Part shown: positions 21,593 through 24,315 of the stretch, one piece after another
Numbering within the stretch: position 1 is the first letter of the stretch
Layout: each line of letters starts with the position of its first letter
Source of the DNA: a virus
Taxonomy: Duplodnaviria > Heunggongvirae > Uroviricota > Caudoviricetes
Virus record (IMG/VR): IMGVR_UViG_649989947_000021
Reading direction: 5' to 3' (one strand)
Length of the DNA stretch: 37,504 bases
Program-made: the position numbers and the translations under genes
The notes under the pieces: generated by a model
The model's input: only the letters and a program-made list of their open reading frames with translations
Told to the model about the DNA's origin: nothing
Databases searched by the model: none

Positions 21593-21710
21593 AGCAACGC
21601 CTCCGCCAGTAACGGATTGCGTAGTTCTTATATTGGGAAGGGGAAAAAAGAAGGCCGCAGCGTAACTATCACTAATAAATTCAGGACAGCCAGTGGCTAC
21701 GGCTCAGTTT

Positions 21711-21840
21711 GGGTTGTGGCGGCCGGAATCGAACCGGCTTCCATCGGTGCGCTGCCGATTGCAGTACGCGCGGCGGTCAGCTATATGACTAGTATTTTCA
21801 CTATCGCCTATCTGCTAGCTCGCCATTGAGCTTCACCACA
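21711..21840 (-). other. tRNA-like element, probably a degenerate or interrupted tRNA (possible anticodon GCG)
   Basis: Minus strand: TGTGGTG (5' acceptor) AA GCTC-AATGGC-GAGC (D-arm-like), then about 55 nt, then ATCGG-CAGCGCA-CCGAT (5-bp stem, 7-nt loop), GGAA, GCCGG-TTCGATT-CCGGC (T-arm), CGCCACA (3' acceptor pairing with the 5' strand, one G-U), A, CCC; lacks U33 and has no encoded CCA. Confidence 0.3.
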
Positions 21841-22056
21841 ACGATAAGAGCACTGCGCGGCACCTTTCACCAATTCCGCGAGGTCTGCGGGTTCAATGCT
21901 CTTACCTGTTGTGCAGAAAAAAAACCACACGGCAGCGAGTTTAAGCTGTGTGGCGAAGTTACCTCTCTTCACCAAGTATTCGGTAATAAAATAACTTGTG
22001 GTGTTCTCGTTTTTATGCCGATAAAATAAACGGTCCACTTTCAAATGGAGCGATTC

Positions 22057-22560
22057 ATGATTTTTCTCAGAACTGAAAACGGCATCGAGAAACTTGAAAA
22101 CTGGGAGGAAATTATATCCAGACCAAACTTTGTCACCACTATAGACAAAGGAGTTCAACAACTTGAGGAGATAATTGGTTACTACAAATTTAAAGAAGAA
22201 ATCCACTGTGGTCTAACTGGTTGCAACCAACCACATCAAATGGGTTATATTGTAAAAACATCTAGTGGCATTGAAACCAACATCGGAAATAAATGTGGTA
22301 AAAACGAATTTGGTGTGGAATTTGGTGAAAACGTTCTTAGTTTCAATAAATTTATGCAACTCGAAACCAATCGGGAAATTATTAGCACCGCAAAAAGTAA
22401 ATGTGAAGCGTGGCAAAAAAATATTGAAACGATACGAAATATCAAACCCACAATAGATTATCTATCTTCTACCATCGAAAATAGTAAAAATTCCAATTAC
22501 TCCGGAAGACTTGGTGCTACAGAAATTCGTTTTTTGACCAAGAACCAGACAGGCCTTGTA
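22057..22560 (+). pseudogene. AT-rich accessory gene of unknown function, 5' part (interrupted by IS10)
   Basis: Plus-strand ORF MIFLRTENGIEKLENWEEIISRPNFVTTIDKG... with GGAG upstream of ATG 22057; reading frame runs into the IS10 inside end at 22561. Confidence 0.7.
22552..22560. repeat. 9-bp target site duplication (GGCCTTGTA), left copy
   Basis: Identical to 23890..23898, directly flanking the IS10 ends. Confidence 0.85.
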
Positions 22561-23889
22561 CTGAGAGATCCCCTCATAATTTCCCCAAAGCGTAACCATG
22601 TGTGAATAAATTTTGAGCTAGTAGGGTTGCAGCCACGAGTAAGTCTTCCCTTGTTATTGTGTAGCCAGAATGCCGCAAAACTTCCATGCCTAAGCGAACT
22701 GTTGAGAGTACGTTTCGATTTCTGACTGTGTTAGCCTGGAAGTGCTTGTCCCAACCTTGTTTCTGAGCATGAACGCCCGCAAGCCAACATGTTAGTTGAA
22801 GCATCAGGGCGATTAGCAGCATGATATCAAAACGCTCTGAGCTGCTCGTTCGGCTATGGCGTAGGCCTAGTCCGTAGGCAGGACTTTTCAAGTCTCGGAA
22901 GGTTTCTTCAATCTGCATTCGCTTCGAATAGATATTAACAAGTTGTTTGGGTGTTCGAATTTCAACAGGTAAGTTAGTTGCTAGAACCCATGGCTCCTTT
23001 GCCGACGCTGAGTAGATTTTAGGTGACGGGTGGTGACAATGAGTCCGTGTCGAGCGCTGATTTTTTCGGCCTTTAGAGCGAGATTTATACAATAGAATTT
23101 GGCATGAGATTGGATTGCTTTTAGTCAGCCTCTTATAGCCTAAAGTCTTTGAGTGACTAGATGACATATCATGTAAGTTGCTGATAGGTTTCCAGTTTTC
23201 CGCTCCTAGGTCTGCATATTGTACTTTTCCTCTTACTCGACTTAACCAGTACCAACCCAGCTTCTCAACGGATTTATACCATGGCACTTTAAAGCCAGCA
23301 TCACTGACAATGAGCGGTGTGGTGTTACTCGGTAGAATGCTCGCAAGGTCGGCTAGAAATTGGTCATGAGCTTTCTTTGAACATTGCTCTGAAAGCGGGA
23401 ACGCTTTCTCATAAAGAGTAACAGAACGACCGTGTAGTGCGACTGAAGCTCGCAATACCATAAGTCGTTTTTGCTCACGAATATCAGACCAGTCAACAAG
23501 TACAATGGGCATCGTATTGCCCGAACAGATAAAGCTAGCATGCCAACGGTATACAGCGAGTCGCTCTTTGTGGAGGTGACGATTACCTAACAATCGGTCG
23601 ATTCGTTTGATGTTATGTTTTGTTCTCGCTTTGGTTGGCAGGTTACGGCCAAGTTCGGTAAGAGTGAGAGTTTTACAGTCAAGTAATGCGTGGCAAGCCA
23701 ACGTTAAGCTGTTGAGTCGTTTTAAGTGTAATTCGGGGCAGAATTGGTAAAGAGAGTCGTGTAAAATATCGAGTTCGCACATCTTGTTGTCTGATTATTG
23801 ATTTTTCGCGAAACCATTTGATCATATGACAAGATGTGTATCCACCTTAACTTAATGATTTTTACCAAAATCATTAGGGGATTCATCAG
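22561..23889 (-). mobile_element. IS10 insertion sequence (IS4 family), 1329 bp
   Basis: Inside end CTGAGAGATCCCCTCATAATTTCCCC at 22561 and outside end (reverse complement) CTGATGAATCCCCTAATGATTTTGGTAAAAATCATTAAG ending at 23889; full 402-aa transposase; 9-bp flanking direct repeats. Confidence 0.95.
22574..23782 (-). CDS. tnp: IS10 transposase
   Basis: 402-aa ORF MCELDILHDSLYQFCPELHLKRLNSLTLACHALLDCKTLTLTELGRNLPTKARTKHNIKRIDRLLGN..., IS10 transposase by recall. Confidence 0.95.
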   Translation of the reverse strand: MCELDILHDSLYQFCPELHLKRLNSLTLACHALLDCKTLTLTELGRNLPTKARTKHNIKRIDRLLGNRHLHKERLAVYRWHASFICSGNTMPIVLVDWSDIREQKRLMVLRASVALHGRSVTLYEKAFPLSEQCSKKAHDQFLADLASILPSNTTPLIVSDAGFKVPWYKSVEKLGWYWLSRVRGKVQYADLGAENWKPISNLHDMSSSHSKTLGYKRLTKSNPISCQILLYKSRSKGRKNQRSTRTHCHHPSPKIYSASAKEPWVLATNLPVEIRTPKQLVNIYSKRMQIEETFRDLKSPAYGLGLRHSRTSSSERFDIMLLIALMLQLTCWLAGVHAQKQGWDKHFQANTVRNRNVLSTVRLGMEVLRHSGYTITREDLLVAATLLAQNLFTHGYALGKL

Positions 23890-23898
23890 GGCCTTGTA
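23890..23898. repeat. 9-bp target site duplication (GGCCTTGTA), right copy
   Basis: Identical to 22552..22560. Confidence 0.85.
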
Positions 23899-24315
23899 AC
23901 CCTTTCTGAAGTGGAAACTGATAAGAATACCAAAACAATTCTGTTCGCAATGAATGAACACATGCGCGAGTCTGGAGAGGCAATAAGTGAATTCTACATA
24001 GGAAAAGTATCATTTAGTCATGTTCTTTTACCAGAAAACAATCTTCGTGATTTTTTTGTTGCGCTCAAAGAAGATCTAAAAAAAATTCAGTGTATTGATC
24101 TACAAACAGCCCCAAGCCCAGAAATTTCTAATGTTGCCAAAATTGCCAGTTCAATCGAAGAACGAATCAAGCGATTAAAAAAACTGAAACATGAAGCCAG
24201 TAAATTCCTAACTAAAAAAAATCTGCGTCCCATCGCAAACAAAATAAAATACTCATCGACAGCGGATGAACTTGAATTCCATAATTTCGAACGCTTTTTA
24301 AAAGGGCTGAAATGA
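23899..24315 (+). pseudogene. AT-rich accessory gene of unknown function, 3' part (downstream of IS10)
   Basis: In-frame continuation after the second duplication copy (TLSEVETDKNTKTILFAMNEHMRESGEAISEFYIGK...FLKGLK, stop 24313..24315); joined to 22057..22560 it gives about 306 aa. Confidence 0.7.

What the first reader, a model, noticed from the sequence alone, without database searches (positions are those of the whole stretch)
21711..21840. tRNA-like element with a roughly 55-nt insertion between D-arm and anticodon arm
On the minus strand, between the accessory gene and the holin, there is a canonical T-arm (GCCGG-TTCGATT-CCGGC), a 7-bp acceptor pairing (TGTGGTG with CGCCACA, one G-U), a D-arm-like GCTC-AATGGC-GAGC, and a perfect 5-bp stem with 7-nt loop (ATCGG-CAGCGCA-CCGAT) correctly spaced from the T-arm by GGAA. 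About 55 nt separate the D-arm from the anticodon stem, and the loop lacks U33. It could be a decayed phage tRNA gene (some lambdoid phages carry tRNAs between Q and S), an interrupted tRNA, or a tRNA-derived regulatory or integration-site remnant.
Basis: seen in the sequence. Interest (0 to 1): 0.45.

Follow-up and report, generated by a model that had tools for sequence, protein, structure and literature searches.

The report
Conserved phage tRNA-like RNA, extra arm
The element is not a decayed tRNA gene but one copy of an unannotated, well-conserved phage RNA: a tRNA-shaped core with a 57-base extra arm whose tip can pair with itself, carried in the control leaders of lambda-like phages and beside true tRNA genes in unrelated phages.

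Summary
On the minus strand, 21842..21713 folds as acceptor-like stem, D arm, a 57-nt extra arm, a 5-bp/7-nt anticodon-like hairpin and a canonical T arm. ARAGORN finds nothing by default. Once the arm is deleted in silico, it calls tRNA-Arg(GCG).

It is neither chance nor decay. I found about 190 copies (81 distinct) in lambdoid prophages, virulent Salmonella siphophages, and Klebsiella, Enterobacter and Pantoea phages. Across 72 distinct sequences, 96.7% of pair cells are paired, against 30-49% in slid controls, and 19 of 34 pairs show compensatory changes.

The extra arm ends in a 6-nt palindrome. It changes between variants (ACUAGU, UCUAGA, GCUAGC, UCGCGA, ACCGGU, UCCGGA, UCUGGA) but stays self-complementary, which suggests kissing-loop dimers.

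The element sits between tR' and the holin gene (this window), between nutL and N, or in tandem with real tRNAs. Lambda has the same outer stems with other interiors.

It has no Rfam match and no annotation, and I found no paper describing it.

Best reading: a tRNA-derived, non-decoding RNA cut out of leader transcripts. Its trans function is unknown. A purely cis processing or spacer role is the main rival.

The parts
21917..21954 (-). Terminator-like hairpin (GCCACACAGC..GCTGCCGTGTGG) followed by a run of 8 T. It corresponds to the late-leader terminator (tR') that precedes the element in HK75, HK629, CUS-3 and lambda.
   Evidence: Read directly. The homologous position is annotated Tr' in HK75. 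The same layout is seen in lambda and in IMG/VR copies. The simple scanner did not pick it up because the stem is interrupted.
21908..21913 (-). CACAAC, conserved 5' flank (gCACAACAGG). It is a copy of the 3' strand of P1 and could pair with GTTGTG of the P1 5' strand as an alternative to P1.
   Evidence: Conserved in the lambdoid, Skate, Klebsiella and Enterobacter groups. In L061 the pairing extends P0 to 19 continuous bp. The alternative pairing is inferred, not tested.
21843..21906 (-). P0: long-range stem GGTAAGAGCATTG / CAGTGCTCTTATC enclosing a hypervariable interior. Its 3' strand contains a boxA-like TGCTCTTA.
   Evidence: Present in the MFE fold. The basal stem covaries between groups: GGTAAATCAA/TTGGTTTATC, GGAGAGAGTA/TACTCTCTTC, ATCGCTTTG/CAAAGCGAT, GGTAATGGCACTG/CAGTGCCATTACC.
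21713..21842 (-). tRNA-like core, closed by the 9-bp stem P1 (GTTGTGGTG 21842-21834 with CGCCACAAC 21721-21713).
   Evidence: Predicted by RNAalifold. P1 is 97.1% paired, and 5 of 9 pairs have double changes. The family covariance model scores it 178.7 bits, though this copy was in the training set. Lambda keeps P1 as GTTGTGCTG/CAGCACAAC.
21818..21831 (-). D arm GCTC-AATGGC-GAGC, with the invariant GG of the D loop.
   Evidence: helix 2, 97.9% paired. ST1UNAM has the fully canonical GCTC-AATGGCA-GAGC.
21761..21815 (-). Extra arm inserted between tRNA positions 26 and 27. It consists of P3 (GCAG/CTGC), a conserved internal loop (AUAG / GCGCGUA), a P4 hairpin of 8-9 bp and an apical loop of about 18 nt.
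   Evidence: P3 is CG in 46 and GC in 22 sequences at one pair, and AU in 45 and GC in 27 at the next. All 5 lower P4 pairs have double changes. There are 43 distinct P4 sequences; most fold to a 7-9-bp stem, a few are weaker or are misfolded by RNAfold.
21788..21793 (-). ACTAGT, a 6-nt self-complementary sequence at the centre of the apical loop; the candidate kissing-loop dimerisation site.
   Evidence: At the same aligned position other variants carry TCTAGA, GCTAGC, TCGCGA, ACCGGT, TCCGGA or TCTGGA. In the 72 aligned sequences 100% of cells are complementary; the outer pair is AU/UA/GC and the inner pair UA/GC/CG/UG (TCCGGA added). Duplex energies run from -3.6 to -8.7 kcal/mol.
21743..21759 (-). 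Anticodon-arm homologue ATCGG-CAGCGCA-CCGAT. The 'anticodon' is GCG; variants have UCG or CCG. A33, C35, G36, C37 and A38 are invariant.
   Evidence: helix 6. Compensatory variants are ATTGG/CCAAT, ATAGG/CCTAT, ATCAG/CTGAT and ATGGG/CCCAT. It aligns to the anticodon arm of a true tRNA-Gln.
21722..21738 (-). T arm GCCGG-TTCGATT-CCGGC with a canonical T loop.
   Evidence: Helix 7: 99.4% paired, and 3 of 5 pairs have double changes (UA 33, CG 26, AU 11 at the middle pair).
21642..21703 (-). Possible downstream terminator-like structure (GCCGTAGC .. GCTGCGGC, then CTTCTTTTTT) between the element and the S21-type holin gene (21592-21377).
   Evidence: My reading only; the scanner did not confirm it. 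Enterobacter-type copies have a clear intrinsic terminator about 10 nt after P1.

Best explanation
The element is one copy of a conserved, horizontally mobile, tRNA-derived structured RNA. Its top half is tRNA-like: an acceptor-like stem, a T arm, and the D-loop GG with the T-loop UUCGA that form the tRNA elbow. The anticodon arm resembles that of tRNA-Arg but cannot decode. A 57-nt arm is inserted at position 26/27.

Proposed mechanism. The tRNA-like fold is recognised by the host tRNA-processing machinery: RNase P on the 5' side, and RNase E or exonucleases on the 3' side. In the N-leader copies, RNase III would cut in the extended outer stem. This releases a stable RNA of about 130 nt. Two copies pair through the self-complementary loop of the extra arm (kissing dimer). 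The dimer acts in trans as a non-decoding tRNA mimic that engages a host factor which reads the tRNA top half or the Arg-like anticodon loop. Excision also cuts the leader and compacts it.

Shown: the structure, its conservation, the self-complementarity of the loop, and the genomic contexts.
Inferred: transcription, processing, dimerisation, and trans action.
Unknown: the target.
For: Structure and selection:
- RNAalifold recovers the five-helix fold.
- 96.7% of pair cells are paired, against 30-49% when the partners are slid. 19 of 34 pairs carry double changes, and 0 of 500 shuffles reach any measure.
- There are 43 different P4 arms; most fold to a 7-9-bp stem.

tRNA homology:
- ARAGORN calls tRNA-Arg at default settings after the arm is removed.
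- Genuine tRNAs score 20-39 bits on the family model, in that register.

It behaves like a gene for a stable RNA, not only a leader feature:
- In L194 it is followed within about 10 nt by two Rfam-confirmed tRNAs.
- In phage Akira it lies about 100 nt from tRNA-Met.
- In Skate-type virulent phages it lies antisense to the flanking tail genes, with a promoter-like site upstream.
- In Enterobacter prophages and in L129 an intrinsic terminator follows it directly.
- P22-like phages L and Sf6 carry real tRNAs at the same late-leader site (PMC8022706).

Dimerisation:
- The 6-nt loop core changes through seven forms yet is always self-complementary, including a G.U-only form, UCUGGA.
- Its two central bases are adjacent, so they can only pair between molecules.

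Processing precedent:
- RNase P cleaves non-tRNA phage RNAs and mRNAs (PMC11143913).
- N-leader copies keep the outer stem that is present in the lambda N leader.
Against: - There are no expression, end-mapping or dimerisation data.
- The closing stem is 9 bp, 15 bp in N leaders, rather than 7. No CCA end is conserved. Canonical RNase P cleavage is therefore not assured.
- The same outer stems in lambda, HK629/CUS-3 and 683R2 hold unrelated interiors. The leader evidently works without the tRNA-like part, and the position could be just a tolerant insertion site.
- No partner protein co-occurs, and no target is known.
- Palindromy could in principle reflect a DNA-level site.
- Sequences were collected with patterns anchored on conserved segments, which inflates apparent invariance there.
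- Single-sequence folding z-scores are modest, -2.1 and -2.7.
Confidence: 0.4

Rival explanations
1. A purely cis-acting leader module. The tRNA-like fold is one of several interchangeable compact structures closed by a conserved stem. Its job is to fold the long untranslated leader and provide an RNase III or RNase P cut. In the N leader this would bring nutL close to the N ribosome-binding site or separate the two, as the structured lambda N leader does. In the late leader it would define the 5' end of the lysis mRNA. The excised RNA would have no function of its own.
For: - N-leader copies lie exactly between nutL (boxA, boxB) and the N start, within the same outer stem and with the same spacing to the Shine-Dalgarno sequence as in lambda.
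- The lambda N leader is described as highly structured. [quoted passage not shown]
- Late-leader frames P0 and P1 are conserved in lambda, HK629 and CUS-3 with other interiors, and P1 itself covaries.
- An upstream copy of the 3' strand of the closing stem exists in both frames (CACAAC; CAAAG), suggesting a folding or switch design.
Against: - A spacer role does not explain strict conservation of the tRNA elbow nucleotides, the internal loop, the NCGCA loop and the covarying palindrome across unrelated frames.
- It does not explain copies that are not in leaders: antisense between tail genes, in tandem with tRNAs, or bracketed by terminators.
Confidence: 0.3
2. A selfish small mobile module, analogous to a MITE or a tRNA-derived SINE. 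It inserts into, or recombines between, hairpin frames of phage leaders. Its RNA or DNA structure would serve its own spread rather than the phage.
For: - About 94% identity between unrelated phage types with different flanks.
- The same module occurs in at least six genomic frames.
- Interiors of P0 and P1 behave as swappable cassettes. The ST1UNAM P0 interior resembles the lambda P1 interior, and the CECAV048 P0 interior resembles the lambda P0 interior.
- A CACAAC repeat flanks the unit.
- One contig, L128, is a chimera of the N-leader and late-leader frames.
Against: - No transposase, reverse transcriptase or integrase is consistently nearby.
- There is usually one copy per phage.
- Ordinary homologous recombination at conserved boundary sequences explains mosaicism in lambdoid phages.
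- Compensatory evolution of tRNA tertiary-contact features and of an intermolecular pairing site points to a function for the RNA product.
Confidence: 0.1
3. A decoding tRNA-Arg whose extra arm is tolerated by, or removed before use in, the translation machinery. This is the 'interrupted tRNA' reading taken literally, for example as an intron.
For: - The 'anticodon' is always NCG (GCG, UCG, CCG); only the wobble base varies.
- ARAGORN calls tRNA-Arg after deletion of the arm.
- Phages often carry Arg tRNAs at this site, as in 933W.
Against: - A33, C37 and A8 are invariant where U33, a purine at 37 and U8 are near-universal.
- The acceptor-like stem is 9 bp, and no discriminator plus CCA is conserved.
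- 57 nt is far too short for a group I intron.
- As far as I know, bacteria lack the tRNA splicing endonuclease.
- The arm itself is under structural selection, which is unlike a spacer destined for removal.
Confidence: 0.04
4. A decayed tRNA pseudogene, or an attachment-site remnant left by site-specific recombination, with no present function.
For: Default tRNA finders and Rfam do not call it. Prophage ends often carry tRNA fragments.
Against: - Strong covariation in all helices, including the insertion.
- Conservation across about 190 loci in several genera and phage types.
- Both halves are always intact.
- It sits in operon leaders and tRNA islands, not at prophage ends.
Confidence: 0.02

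Closest known systems
Phage-encoded tRNA genes in late-operon leaders (phage L and Sf6 Asn/Leu/Thr tRNAs; 933W ileZ-argN-argO)
   Same: Same genomic niche, between the late promoter/terminator and the lysis genes (PMC8022706). Same cloverleaf core with D-loop GG and T-loop TTCGA. It is found in tandem with true tRNAs in L194 and near one in Akira. It would presumably be excised from the same transcripts.
   Different: It has a 57-nt structured arm inserted at position 26/27, a 9-bp closing stem, and A8, A33 and C37. Default tRNA finders miss it. It shows no specific sequence similarity to argN or argO.
The structured lambda N-leader region between nutL and N, reported to be RNase III-sensitive (Wilson et al. 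2002, cited in PMC5725501; the cleavage positions are from my memory)
   Same: N-leader copies occupy exactly this position. They share lambda's outer stem (CTTTGGGGTGTG.. / ..CACACCACCAAAG) and the same distance to the N Shine-Dalgarno sequence.
   Different: The interior is a tRNA-like five-way junction instead of lambda's long irregular hairpin. The copy in this window is in the late leader, not the N leader. RNase III cleavage of these variants has not been tested.
tmRNA tRNA-like domain, and the T4 stable RNAs species 1 and 2 (rnaC, rnaD)
   Same: These are non-decoding RNAs with a tRNA-like acceptor and T arm. rnaC and rnaD are encoded in a phage tRNA cluster, and rnaC ends in a T-arm-like CCGGG-TTCGAAT-CCCGG. 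The only Rfam signal for the element is the 3' end of tmRNA.
   Different: The tmRNA score is 16 bits against a threshold of 47. ARAGORN's tmRNA search finds nothing. There is no mRNA-like region or pseudoknots. The element has a real D stem and an anticodon-arm homologue. The family model does not hit rnaC or rnaD.
Bacterial Y RNA YrlA (tRNA-like module bound by Rsr/Ro60)
   Same: A non-coding RNA that mimics the tRNA elbow and acceptor-T stack and also carries a long extra helix. This comparison is from my own knowledge.
   Different: As I recall, in YrlA the acceptor-like stem is closed and the RNA ends lie in the Ro-binding stem. Here the acceptor-like stem holds the ends. No non-tRNA-clan Rfam family matched the element; I assume YrlA is in the library. 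E. coli K-12 lacks Rsr, to my knowledge.
Kissing-loop dimerisation sites (HIV-1 DIS; phi29 pRNA loop-loop contacts)
   Same: A 6-nt self-complementary core flanked by purines in a hairpin loop. It varies between lineages while staying self-complementary. This is a 'works like' comparison only.
   Different: The RNA class is unrelated. The loop is about 18 nt rather than 9. Dimerisation has not been demonstrated.

Membership tests
Canonical tRNA (Rfam RF00005 / ARAGORN) | Detected by tRNA models at standard thresholds | tested here: not met
   ARAGORN default finds 0 genes. Rfam gathering threshold gives no tRNA-clan hit. Detection needs either a lowered threshold plus intron mode or in-silico removal of the arm.
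Canonical tRNA (Rfam RF00005 / ARAGORN) | Four-arm cloverleaf with a 7-bp acceptor, D arm, 5-bp/7-nt anticodon arm, and T arm with the GG/TTCRA elbow nucleotides | tested here: inconclusive
   All four arms and the elbow nucleotides are present and covary. However, there is a fifth helix of 57 nt, and the closing stem is 9 bp.
Canonical tRNA (Rfam RF00005 / ARAGORN) | Decoding-competent core: U33, purine 37, U8 | tested here: not met
   A33, C37 and A8 are invariant in 72 distinct sequences. This also holds in sequences ascertained with a pattern that does not cover the loop.
tRNA pseudogene / att-site remnant | Neutral decay: broken pairs, no compensatory change, truncation, location at prophage ends | tested here: not met
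   96.7% of pair cells are paired and 19 of 34 pairs carry double changes. Copies are full length. They sit in operon leaders or tRNA islands.
Intron-containing tRNA | Intervening sequence in the anticodon loop that is a group I intron (more than about 200 nt, P1-P9), or a bulge-helix-bulge substrate | tested here: not met
   The insertion is 57 nt and lies between the D arm and the anticodon arm. No intron family was found by Rfam. The bulge-helix-bulge motif was not examined; as far as I know the enzyme is absent from bacteria.
tmRNA | Score above the Rfam threshold; tag-peptide reading frame; pseudoknots | tested here: not met
   16 bits against a gathering score of 47, and only the 3' end aligns well. 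ARAGORN's tmRNA mode finds nothing.
Lambda-type N-leader RNase III structure | Located between nutL and the N start, and closed by the stem CTTTGGGGTGTG../..CACACCACCAAAG | tested here: met
   Met for the N-leader copies (L118, L134, L180, L190 and others). Not met for the copy in this window, which lies between tR' and the holin gene.
Lambda-type N-leader RNase III structure | Cleavage by RNase III, and an effect on N translation | not testable with these tools
   Needs in vitro cleavage assays and rnc mutants.
Any described RNA family (Rfam 15) | Match at the gathering score | tested here: not met
   No hit on the window copy or on eight diverse homologous loci. In those loci only neighbouring tRNAs and STnc100 were found. 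PGAP annotates nothing at any of the 25 E. coli copies listed, out of 165 genomes with a match.

The most novel reading that the evidence does not exclude
This is a previously unrecognised class of phage RNA: a tRNA mimic that forms homodimers through a co-evolving kissing loop. It is cut out of the N-antitermination and Q-antitermination leaders of lambda-like phages, and out of tRNA arrays in virulent phages. It acts in trans on a host tRNA-recognising factor, for example as a decoy for a tRNA-targeting defence nuclease or a processing enzyme. Different loop palindromes would define separate dimerisation specificities.
Probability: 0.25. Interest if true: 0.85.

Novelty: new variant of a known kind. 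Interest (0 to 1): 0.66.

Why it matters
The pL-nutL-N leader and the pR'-tR'-S leader of lambdoid phages are among the most studied regulatory regions in biology. Natural variants of both carry a strongly conserved tRNA-shaped RNA that no annotation pipeline, Rfam family or paper I could find describes.

It offers a ready-made comparative data set: seven loop palindromes, dozens of compensated stems, and at least three interchangeable interiors in the same frames. With these one can test how tRNA mimicry, RNase P/RNase III processing and RNA dimerisation are used by phages.

If the RNA acts in trans, it adds a new member to the short list of bacterial and phage tRNA mimics (tmRNA, YrlA, T4 species 1 RNA) and could bear on tRNA-targeting defence and counter-defence.

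If it acts only in cis, it shows that the 'form, not sequence' of the structured N leader can be supplied by a tRNA fold. It would also give a function to the uncharacterised stretch between tR' and S.

In practical terms, genome annotators currently mislabel it as 'tRNA-Ser' (58 nt), 'polyubiquitin-A' or 'hypothetical protein'.

Tried and rejected
- **Encoded CCA end.** Lambdoid late-leader copies read 8 bp + C/T + CCA, and N-leader copies 9 bp + A + CCA. In N leaders, however, 'ACCA' is part of the extended stem shared with lambda. Skate, Klebsiella and Enterobacter copies have no CCA. Dropped.
- **tRNA-Sec (8/5 layout) and class II tRNA identity.** ARAGORN's relaxed call reads the small hairpin as a long variable arm. 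Alignment of true tRNAs to the family model puts their anticodon arm on that hairpin. The two readings have the same topology, and I kept the insertion reading.
- **Mini-tmRNA with a tag ORF in the arm.** There is no conserved reading frame; the arm sequences differ completely between variants.
- **boxA / Nus-factor site just 5' of P1 (TGCTCTTA).** It is a good match in lambdoid and Skate copies. In Klebsiella and Enterobacter copies it is replaced by covarying non-boxA sequence. Conservation is therefore explained by the P0 stem, and boxA function is possible only in some copies.
Only generic tRNA identities were found.
- **Pas sRNAs next to holin genes (2026 preprint).** These are 84-nt Hfq-type sRNAs with terminators and are unrelated.
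- **T4 rnaC/rnaD.** They share a T-arm-like 3' end, but the family model does not hit them.
- **Protein-coding reading** (ORFs 21808-22206 minus strand and 21617-21829 plus strand). No Pfam match for the former, and 1-nt indels occur in conserved columns.
- **Second copy in the window.** None.
- **Tertiary pair between loop CGC and internal-loop GCG.** It is complementary, but both sides are invariant, so it cannot be tested. Left as a note.
- **Literature.** Four searches found no description. Wilson et al. 2002 could not be opened.
Full report

Yes. On the minus strand the sequence reads as follows:
- TGTGGTG (21840-21834)
- AA
- GCTC-AATGGC-GAGC (21831-21818)
- T, then 57 nt
- ATCGG-CAGCGCA-CCGAT (21759-21743)
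- GGAA
- GCCGG-TTCGATT-CCGGC (21738-21722)
- CGCCACA (21721-21715)

Standard tools are silent. ARAGORN at default settings finds no gene in the window. Rfam at gathering thresholds finds only an IS10 RNA-OUT elsewhere. A relaxed Rfam scan gives only a 16-bit match to the 3' end of tmRNA, which belongs to the tRNA clan.

Relaxed tools do see the element. ARAGORN with intron mode and a lowered threshold calls a tRNA covering the element (window 21841-21710), reading the same helices as a class II layout. When I deleted the 57-nt arm in silico, ARAGORN at default settings called a 75-nt tRNA-Arg(GCG). A covariance model built from the family aligns a genuine phage tRNA-Gln (ARAGORN call) with the 56-position arm deleted and its anticodon arm placed on the small hairpin. 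Other true tRNAs score 20-39 bits in the same way.

So 'tRNA with an insertion between the D arm and the anticodon arm' is an accurate description.

**2. Chance, decay or selection?**

The core of about 143 nt is 93-99% identical in lambdoid phages (HK75, PhiR5_2, 611R6 and others) and 93-94% identical in unrelated Salmonella siphophages (Skate, seszw, Akira, CECAV048). It is 81% identical in ST1UNAM and 78% in Pantoea phage PdC23. In all of these the flanks are unrelated.

The late-leader type is present in 165 of 5426 complete E. coli genomes, and nothing is annotated at any of the 25 copies listed. It is also present in IMG/VR contigs, in metagenomes, and in GTDB representatives of Klebsiella, Enterobacter and Superficieibacter. 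In total I collected about 190 instances, of which 81 are distinct 150-mers.

On a MAFFT alignment of 72 distinct sequences, RNAalifold independently predicts the five-helix fold. Pair counting on that alignment gives:
- 96.7% of cells paired, against 30-49% when the 3' partners are slid by 1-3 columns
- 19 of 34 pairs with changes on both sides
- no shuffle out of 500 reaching any of the measures

Every helix contributes:
- Closing stem: GAGTGGTG/CACCACTC, GTGAGGTG/CACCTCAC, TTGTGATG/CTTCACAA.
- T stem: the middle pair is UA in 33 sequences, CG in 26 and AU in 11.
- Small hairpin: ATTGG/CCAAT, ATAGG/CCTAT, ATCAG/CTGAT.
- Arm base (P3): one pair is CG in 46 and GC in 22; the next is AU in 45 and GC in 27.
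- Arm hairpin (P4): 43 distinct sequences; most fold to a 7-9-bp stem.

One-nucleotide indels in conserved columns rule out the overlapping ORFs. A decayed pseudogene or an att remnant is therefore excluded.

Two caveats apply. Sequences were fished with patterns anchored on the D-arm region or on the hairpin/T-arm region, so invariance inside a pattern is partly by construction. Each region is, however, also conserved in the set fished with the other pattern. Single-sequence folding z-scores are only -2.1 and -2.7.

**3. Anatomy**

- *P1.* The closing stem is 9 bp in nearly all groups (21842-21834 with 21721-21713). In N-leader copies it continues for 6 more pairs after a bulged A.
- *Features kept from tRNA.* These are the D stem, the D-loop GG, the T-loop TTCGAxx, the 5-bp T stem, and a 5-bp/7-nt anticodon-arm homologue.
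- *Features lost.* U8 is replaced by A, U33 by A, and the purine at 37 by C, all invariant. There is no conserved discriminator plus CCA.
- *'Anticodon'.* It is always NCG (GCG, UCG, or CCG in the distant copy L106).
- *Extra arm.* It consists of P3 (3-4 bp), an internal loop with nearly invariant AUAG opposite GCGCGUA, P4, and an apical loop of about 18 nt.
- *P0.* Immediately 5' of P1 lies a second conserved long-range stem, P0 (21906-21843). Its basal pairs covary and its interior is hypervariable.
- *5' flank.* P0 is preceded by gCACAACAGG. That CACAAC copies the 3' strand of P1 and could compete for the P1 5' strand. In L061 this pairing makes P0 a perfect 19-bp helix.
- *N-leader analogue.* N-leader copies have an analogous upstream CAAAG(C) that mimics the 3' strand of the extended stem.

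**4. The palindrome**

At the centre of the apical loop the window has ACTAGT (21793-21788). At the same aligned position other variants have TCTAGA, GCTAGC, TCGCGA, ACCGGT, TCCGGA or TCTGGA. In the 72-sequence alignment all cells are self-complementary. The outer pair is AU in 46, UA in 22 and GC in 4. The central pair is UA in 60, GC in 6, UG in 4 and CG in 2.

UCUGGA is self-complementary only through G.U pairs, and it sits mutationally between UCUAGA and UCCGGA. That is the signature of RNA pairing rather than of a DNA site.

The two central bases are adjacent, so they cannot pair within one loop. Selection for self-complementarity therefore implies pairing between two molecules, that is, a kissing or extended dimer. 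Calculated 6-bp duplex energies are -3.6 to -8.7 kcal/mol. Only 1.6% of random hexamers are Watson-Crick palindromes, or 5.3% if G.U is allowed.

Different palindromes occur within one genomic frame, and the same palindrome occurs in different frames. Dimerisation itself is inferred, not shown.

**5. Where it sits**

The window is a lambdoid prophage read on the minus strand. In that order it contains:
- a Q-type antiterminator, 25260-24430 (PF03589 and phrog_127)
- a plus-strand accessory gene of unknown function, phrog_7003, split by IS10
- a terminator-like hairpin with a T run, 21954-21917
- P0 and the tRNA-like core
- an S21-type holin gene (21592-21377), endolysin and spanins

HK75 has the compact version: Q, pR', Tr', the element, then the holin gene. 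An Enterobacter prophage has Q, an HNH gene, a terminator, the element, a terminator, STnc100, then the lysis genes.

A second set of copies lies in the early-left operon, between nutL (boxA GCTCTTA; boxB GCCCTGAAGAAGGGC or GCGCTGAAAAAGCGC) and the start of N. The downstream N proteins are lambda-N-like or P22-gp24-like. Related copies follow cI in phages where no N gene is seen.

Comparison with lambda shows that these copies share the outer stem of the lambda N leader and its distance to the N Shine-Dalgarno sequence, but have a different interior. Phage 683R2 has yet another interior there.

The same holds in the late leader. Lambda itself has CACAACAGG, P0 and P1 (GTTGTGCTG/CAGCACAAC, a compensated version) enclosing simple hairpins. 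HK629 and CUS-3 have a further interior type.

Other copies are not in leaders:
- In Skate-type phages the element lies antisense between the major-tail and tail-completion genes.
- In Akira it is about 100 nt from tRNA-Met.
- In L194 it is followed within about 10 nt by two Rfam-confirmed tRNAs.
- In a Klebsiella phage it lies between the portal and terminase genes.
- In L129 and the Enterobacter group an intrinsic terminator follows directly.

**6. How it most likely works**

What is shown: a tRNA-derived RNA fold under purifying selection, a self-complementary loop, and residence both in antitermination leaders and in tRNA arrays.

What I infer:
- It is transcribed with the late leader after Q-mediated read-through.
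- It is recognised through its acceptor-T stack and elbow by tRNA-processing enzymes. RNase P is known to cut non-tRNA phage RNAs and mRNAs (PMC11143913). In N leaders RNase III would cut in the stem shared with lambda. The lambda N leader is described as highly structured, in a sentence citing Wilson et al. 2002 on RNase III and N translation repression (PMC5725501). The cleavage positions themselves are from my memory.
- It accumulates as an RNA of about 130 nt that dimerises.
- It acts as a non-decoding tRNA mimic on an unidentified host factor.

The tRNA-array and terminator-bracketed copies are what tip me towards a product that acts in trans.

The main rival is a purely cis role as a compact, cleavable spacer, one of several interchangeable interiors. 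That rival explains the N-leader geometry well. It does not explain conservation of the elbow, the internal loop, the NCGCA loop and the palindrome across unrelated frames. A selfish-module reading and a literal decoding tRNA are less likely, for the reasons given under the rival explanations.

My confidence that this is a functional structured RNA family is about 0.9. My confidence in the specific trans-acting, dimeric-mimic mechanism is about 0.4.

**7. Comparison with what is known**

By the membership tests it is not a canonical tRNA, not a tmRNA, not an intron-containing tRNA and not a pseudogene. No non-tRNA-clan Rfam 15 family matches the window copy, and no family reaches its gathering score on it or on eight diverse homologous loci. 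PGAP leaves all listed copies unannotated.

Depositors have labelled homologues as a 58-nt 'tRNA-Ser', 'polyubiquitin-A' or 'hypothetical protein'.

Four full-text searches found no description. The Pas sRNAs that lie next to holin genes are unrelated.

The closest things are:
- real phage tRNAs at the same site (PMC8022706; 933W), to which it has no specific similarity
- the structured lambda N leader
- the tmRNA tRNA-like domain, T4 species 1 RNA and YrlA, as other tRNA mimics
- kissing-loop dimerisation sites, as a mechanistic analogy

**8. Verdict**

It is a new variant within the known kind 'tRNA-like non-coding RNA', with an unusual architecture: an arm inserted at position 26/27 and a covarying self-complementary loop. 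It has a striking address, the N and Q antitermination leaders. Its function remains to be shown experimentally.

Noticed in passing
window 22045-24315 (+), IS10 about 22570-23889: A plus-strand accessory gene of unknown function (phrog_7003, 309-position profile) is split by an IS10 insertion. Profile positions 1-171 are encoded at 22045-22605 and positions 174-309 at 23911-24315. The IS10 evidence is the transposase ORF at 22574-23782 (-), RNA-OUT at 23775-23844, and the outside end at 23871-23889. The gene lies between Q and the late-leader terminator, antisense to late transcription.
   Followed up: partly
window 21843-21855 (-); loci L101, L103, L108, L111, L179, L255: The 3' strand of P0 contains TGCTCTTA/TGCTCTTT, a good boxA match, right next to the 5' arm of P1. 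This recalls boxA next to the 16S RNase III stem in rrn operons. Klebsiella and Enterobacter copies replace it with covarying non-boxA sequence, so its function as a Nus-factor site is unresolved. Some early-left copies have a perfect rrn-type GCTCTTTAACAA further upstream.
   Followed up: partly
L267 (lambda 44780-44940); L004 (ST1UNAM); L003 (CECAV048): The interiors of P0 and P1 behave as shuffled cassettes. The P0 interior of Salmonella phage CECAV048 is nearly identical to lambda's P0 interior. The P0 interior of ST1UNAM resembles lambda's P1 interior (..ACCGGAAGCAGAACCGGAT..GGCGTCATCGCC..). To my knowledge the stretch between tR' and S in lambda has no assigned function.
   Followed up: partly
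L006 1580-1700 (HK629); L002 2590-2800 (CUS-3): A second interior type occupies the same P1 frame. It starts with a D-arm-position hairpin (ACGCA-GGCTGA-TGCGT) and ends with a T-arm-position hairpin (TCGG-AGTTCAGCA-CCGA). The middle varies from 80 to 170 nt. This may be another structured RNA family. The CUS-3 record labels the flanks as 'boundary sequences' bsq3 and bsq4.
   Followed up: no
L189 655-800 (phage vB_EcoP-683R2, N leader): A third, unrelated interior is found inside the lambda-type N-leader outer stem. The same phage carries the tRNA-like element in its late leader.
   Followed up: no
window 21908-21913 versus 21713-21718; N-leader copies (CAAAGC..GCTTTGG..CCAAAG): In both frames an upstream copy of the 3' strand of the closing stem could pair with its 5' strand. 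This gives two mutually exclusive structures, suggesting a possible co-transcriptional folding aid or switch.
   Followed up: no
L195 7060-7262 (-): In an Enterobacter prophage the Rfam family STnc100 (55.7 bits) lies between the element's terminator and the holin genes. The late leader there carries two structured RNAs in series.
   Followed up: no
L106 / L175 (IMGVR_UViG_3300005341_000004, Ga0070691 contig): A distant member scores 68.7 bits. It has a completely different closing stem (GCCATTTGCG/CGCAAATGGT), a CCG 'anticodon', a shorter arm, and only a weak A/U-rich wobble palindrome (AAUGUU). The family may extend beyond the groups sampled. Its host and context were not examined.
   Followed up: no
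L128 (human gut metagenome contig): The 5' half of the element has the N-leader frame and the 3' half the late-leader frame. This is either recombination between two copies or an assembly chimera across the repeat.
   Followed up: no
window 21749-21751 (CGC of the small loop) and 21767-21769 (GCG of the internal loop): The invariant CGC in the anticodon-like loop is complementary to the invariant GCG in the internal loop of the extra arm. This is a possible tertiary contact that would dock the arm. Both sides are invariant, so covariation cannot test it.
   Followed up: no
L109 1409-1547 (-) (T4 rnaC): T4 species 1 RNA ends in a T-arm-like CCGGG-TTCGAAT-CCCGG and begins with CGAUUCGAGG, which resembles the tmRNA 5' motif GGAUUCGACGG as I recall it. 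It is another tRNA-like stable RNA in a phage tRNA cluster, of unknown function to my knowledge. It is not related to this family by the covariance model.
   Followed up: partly
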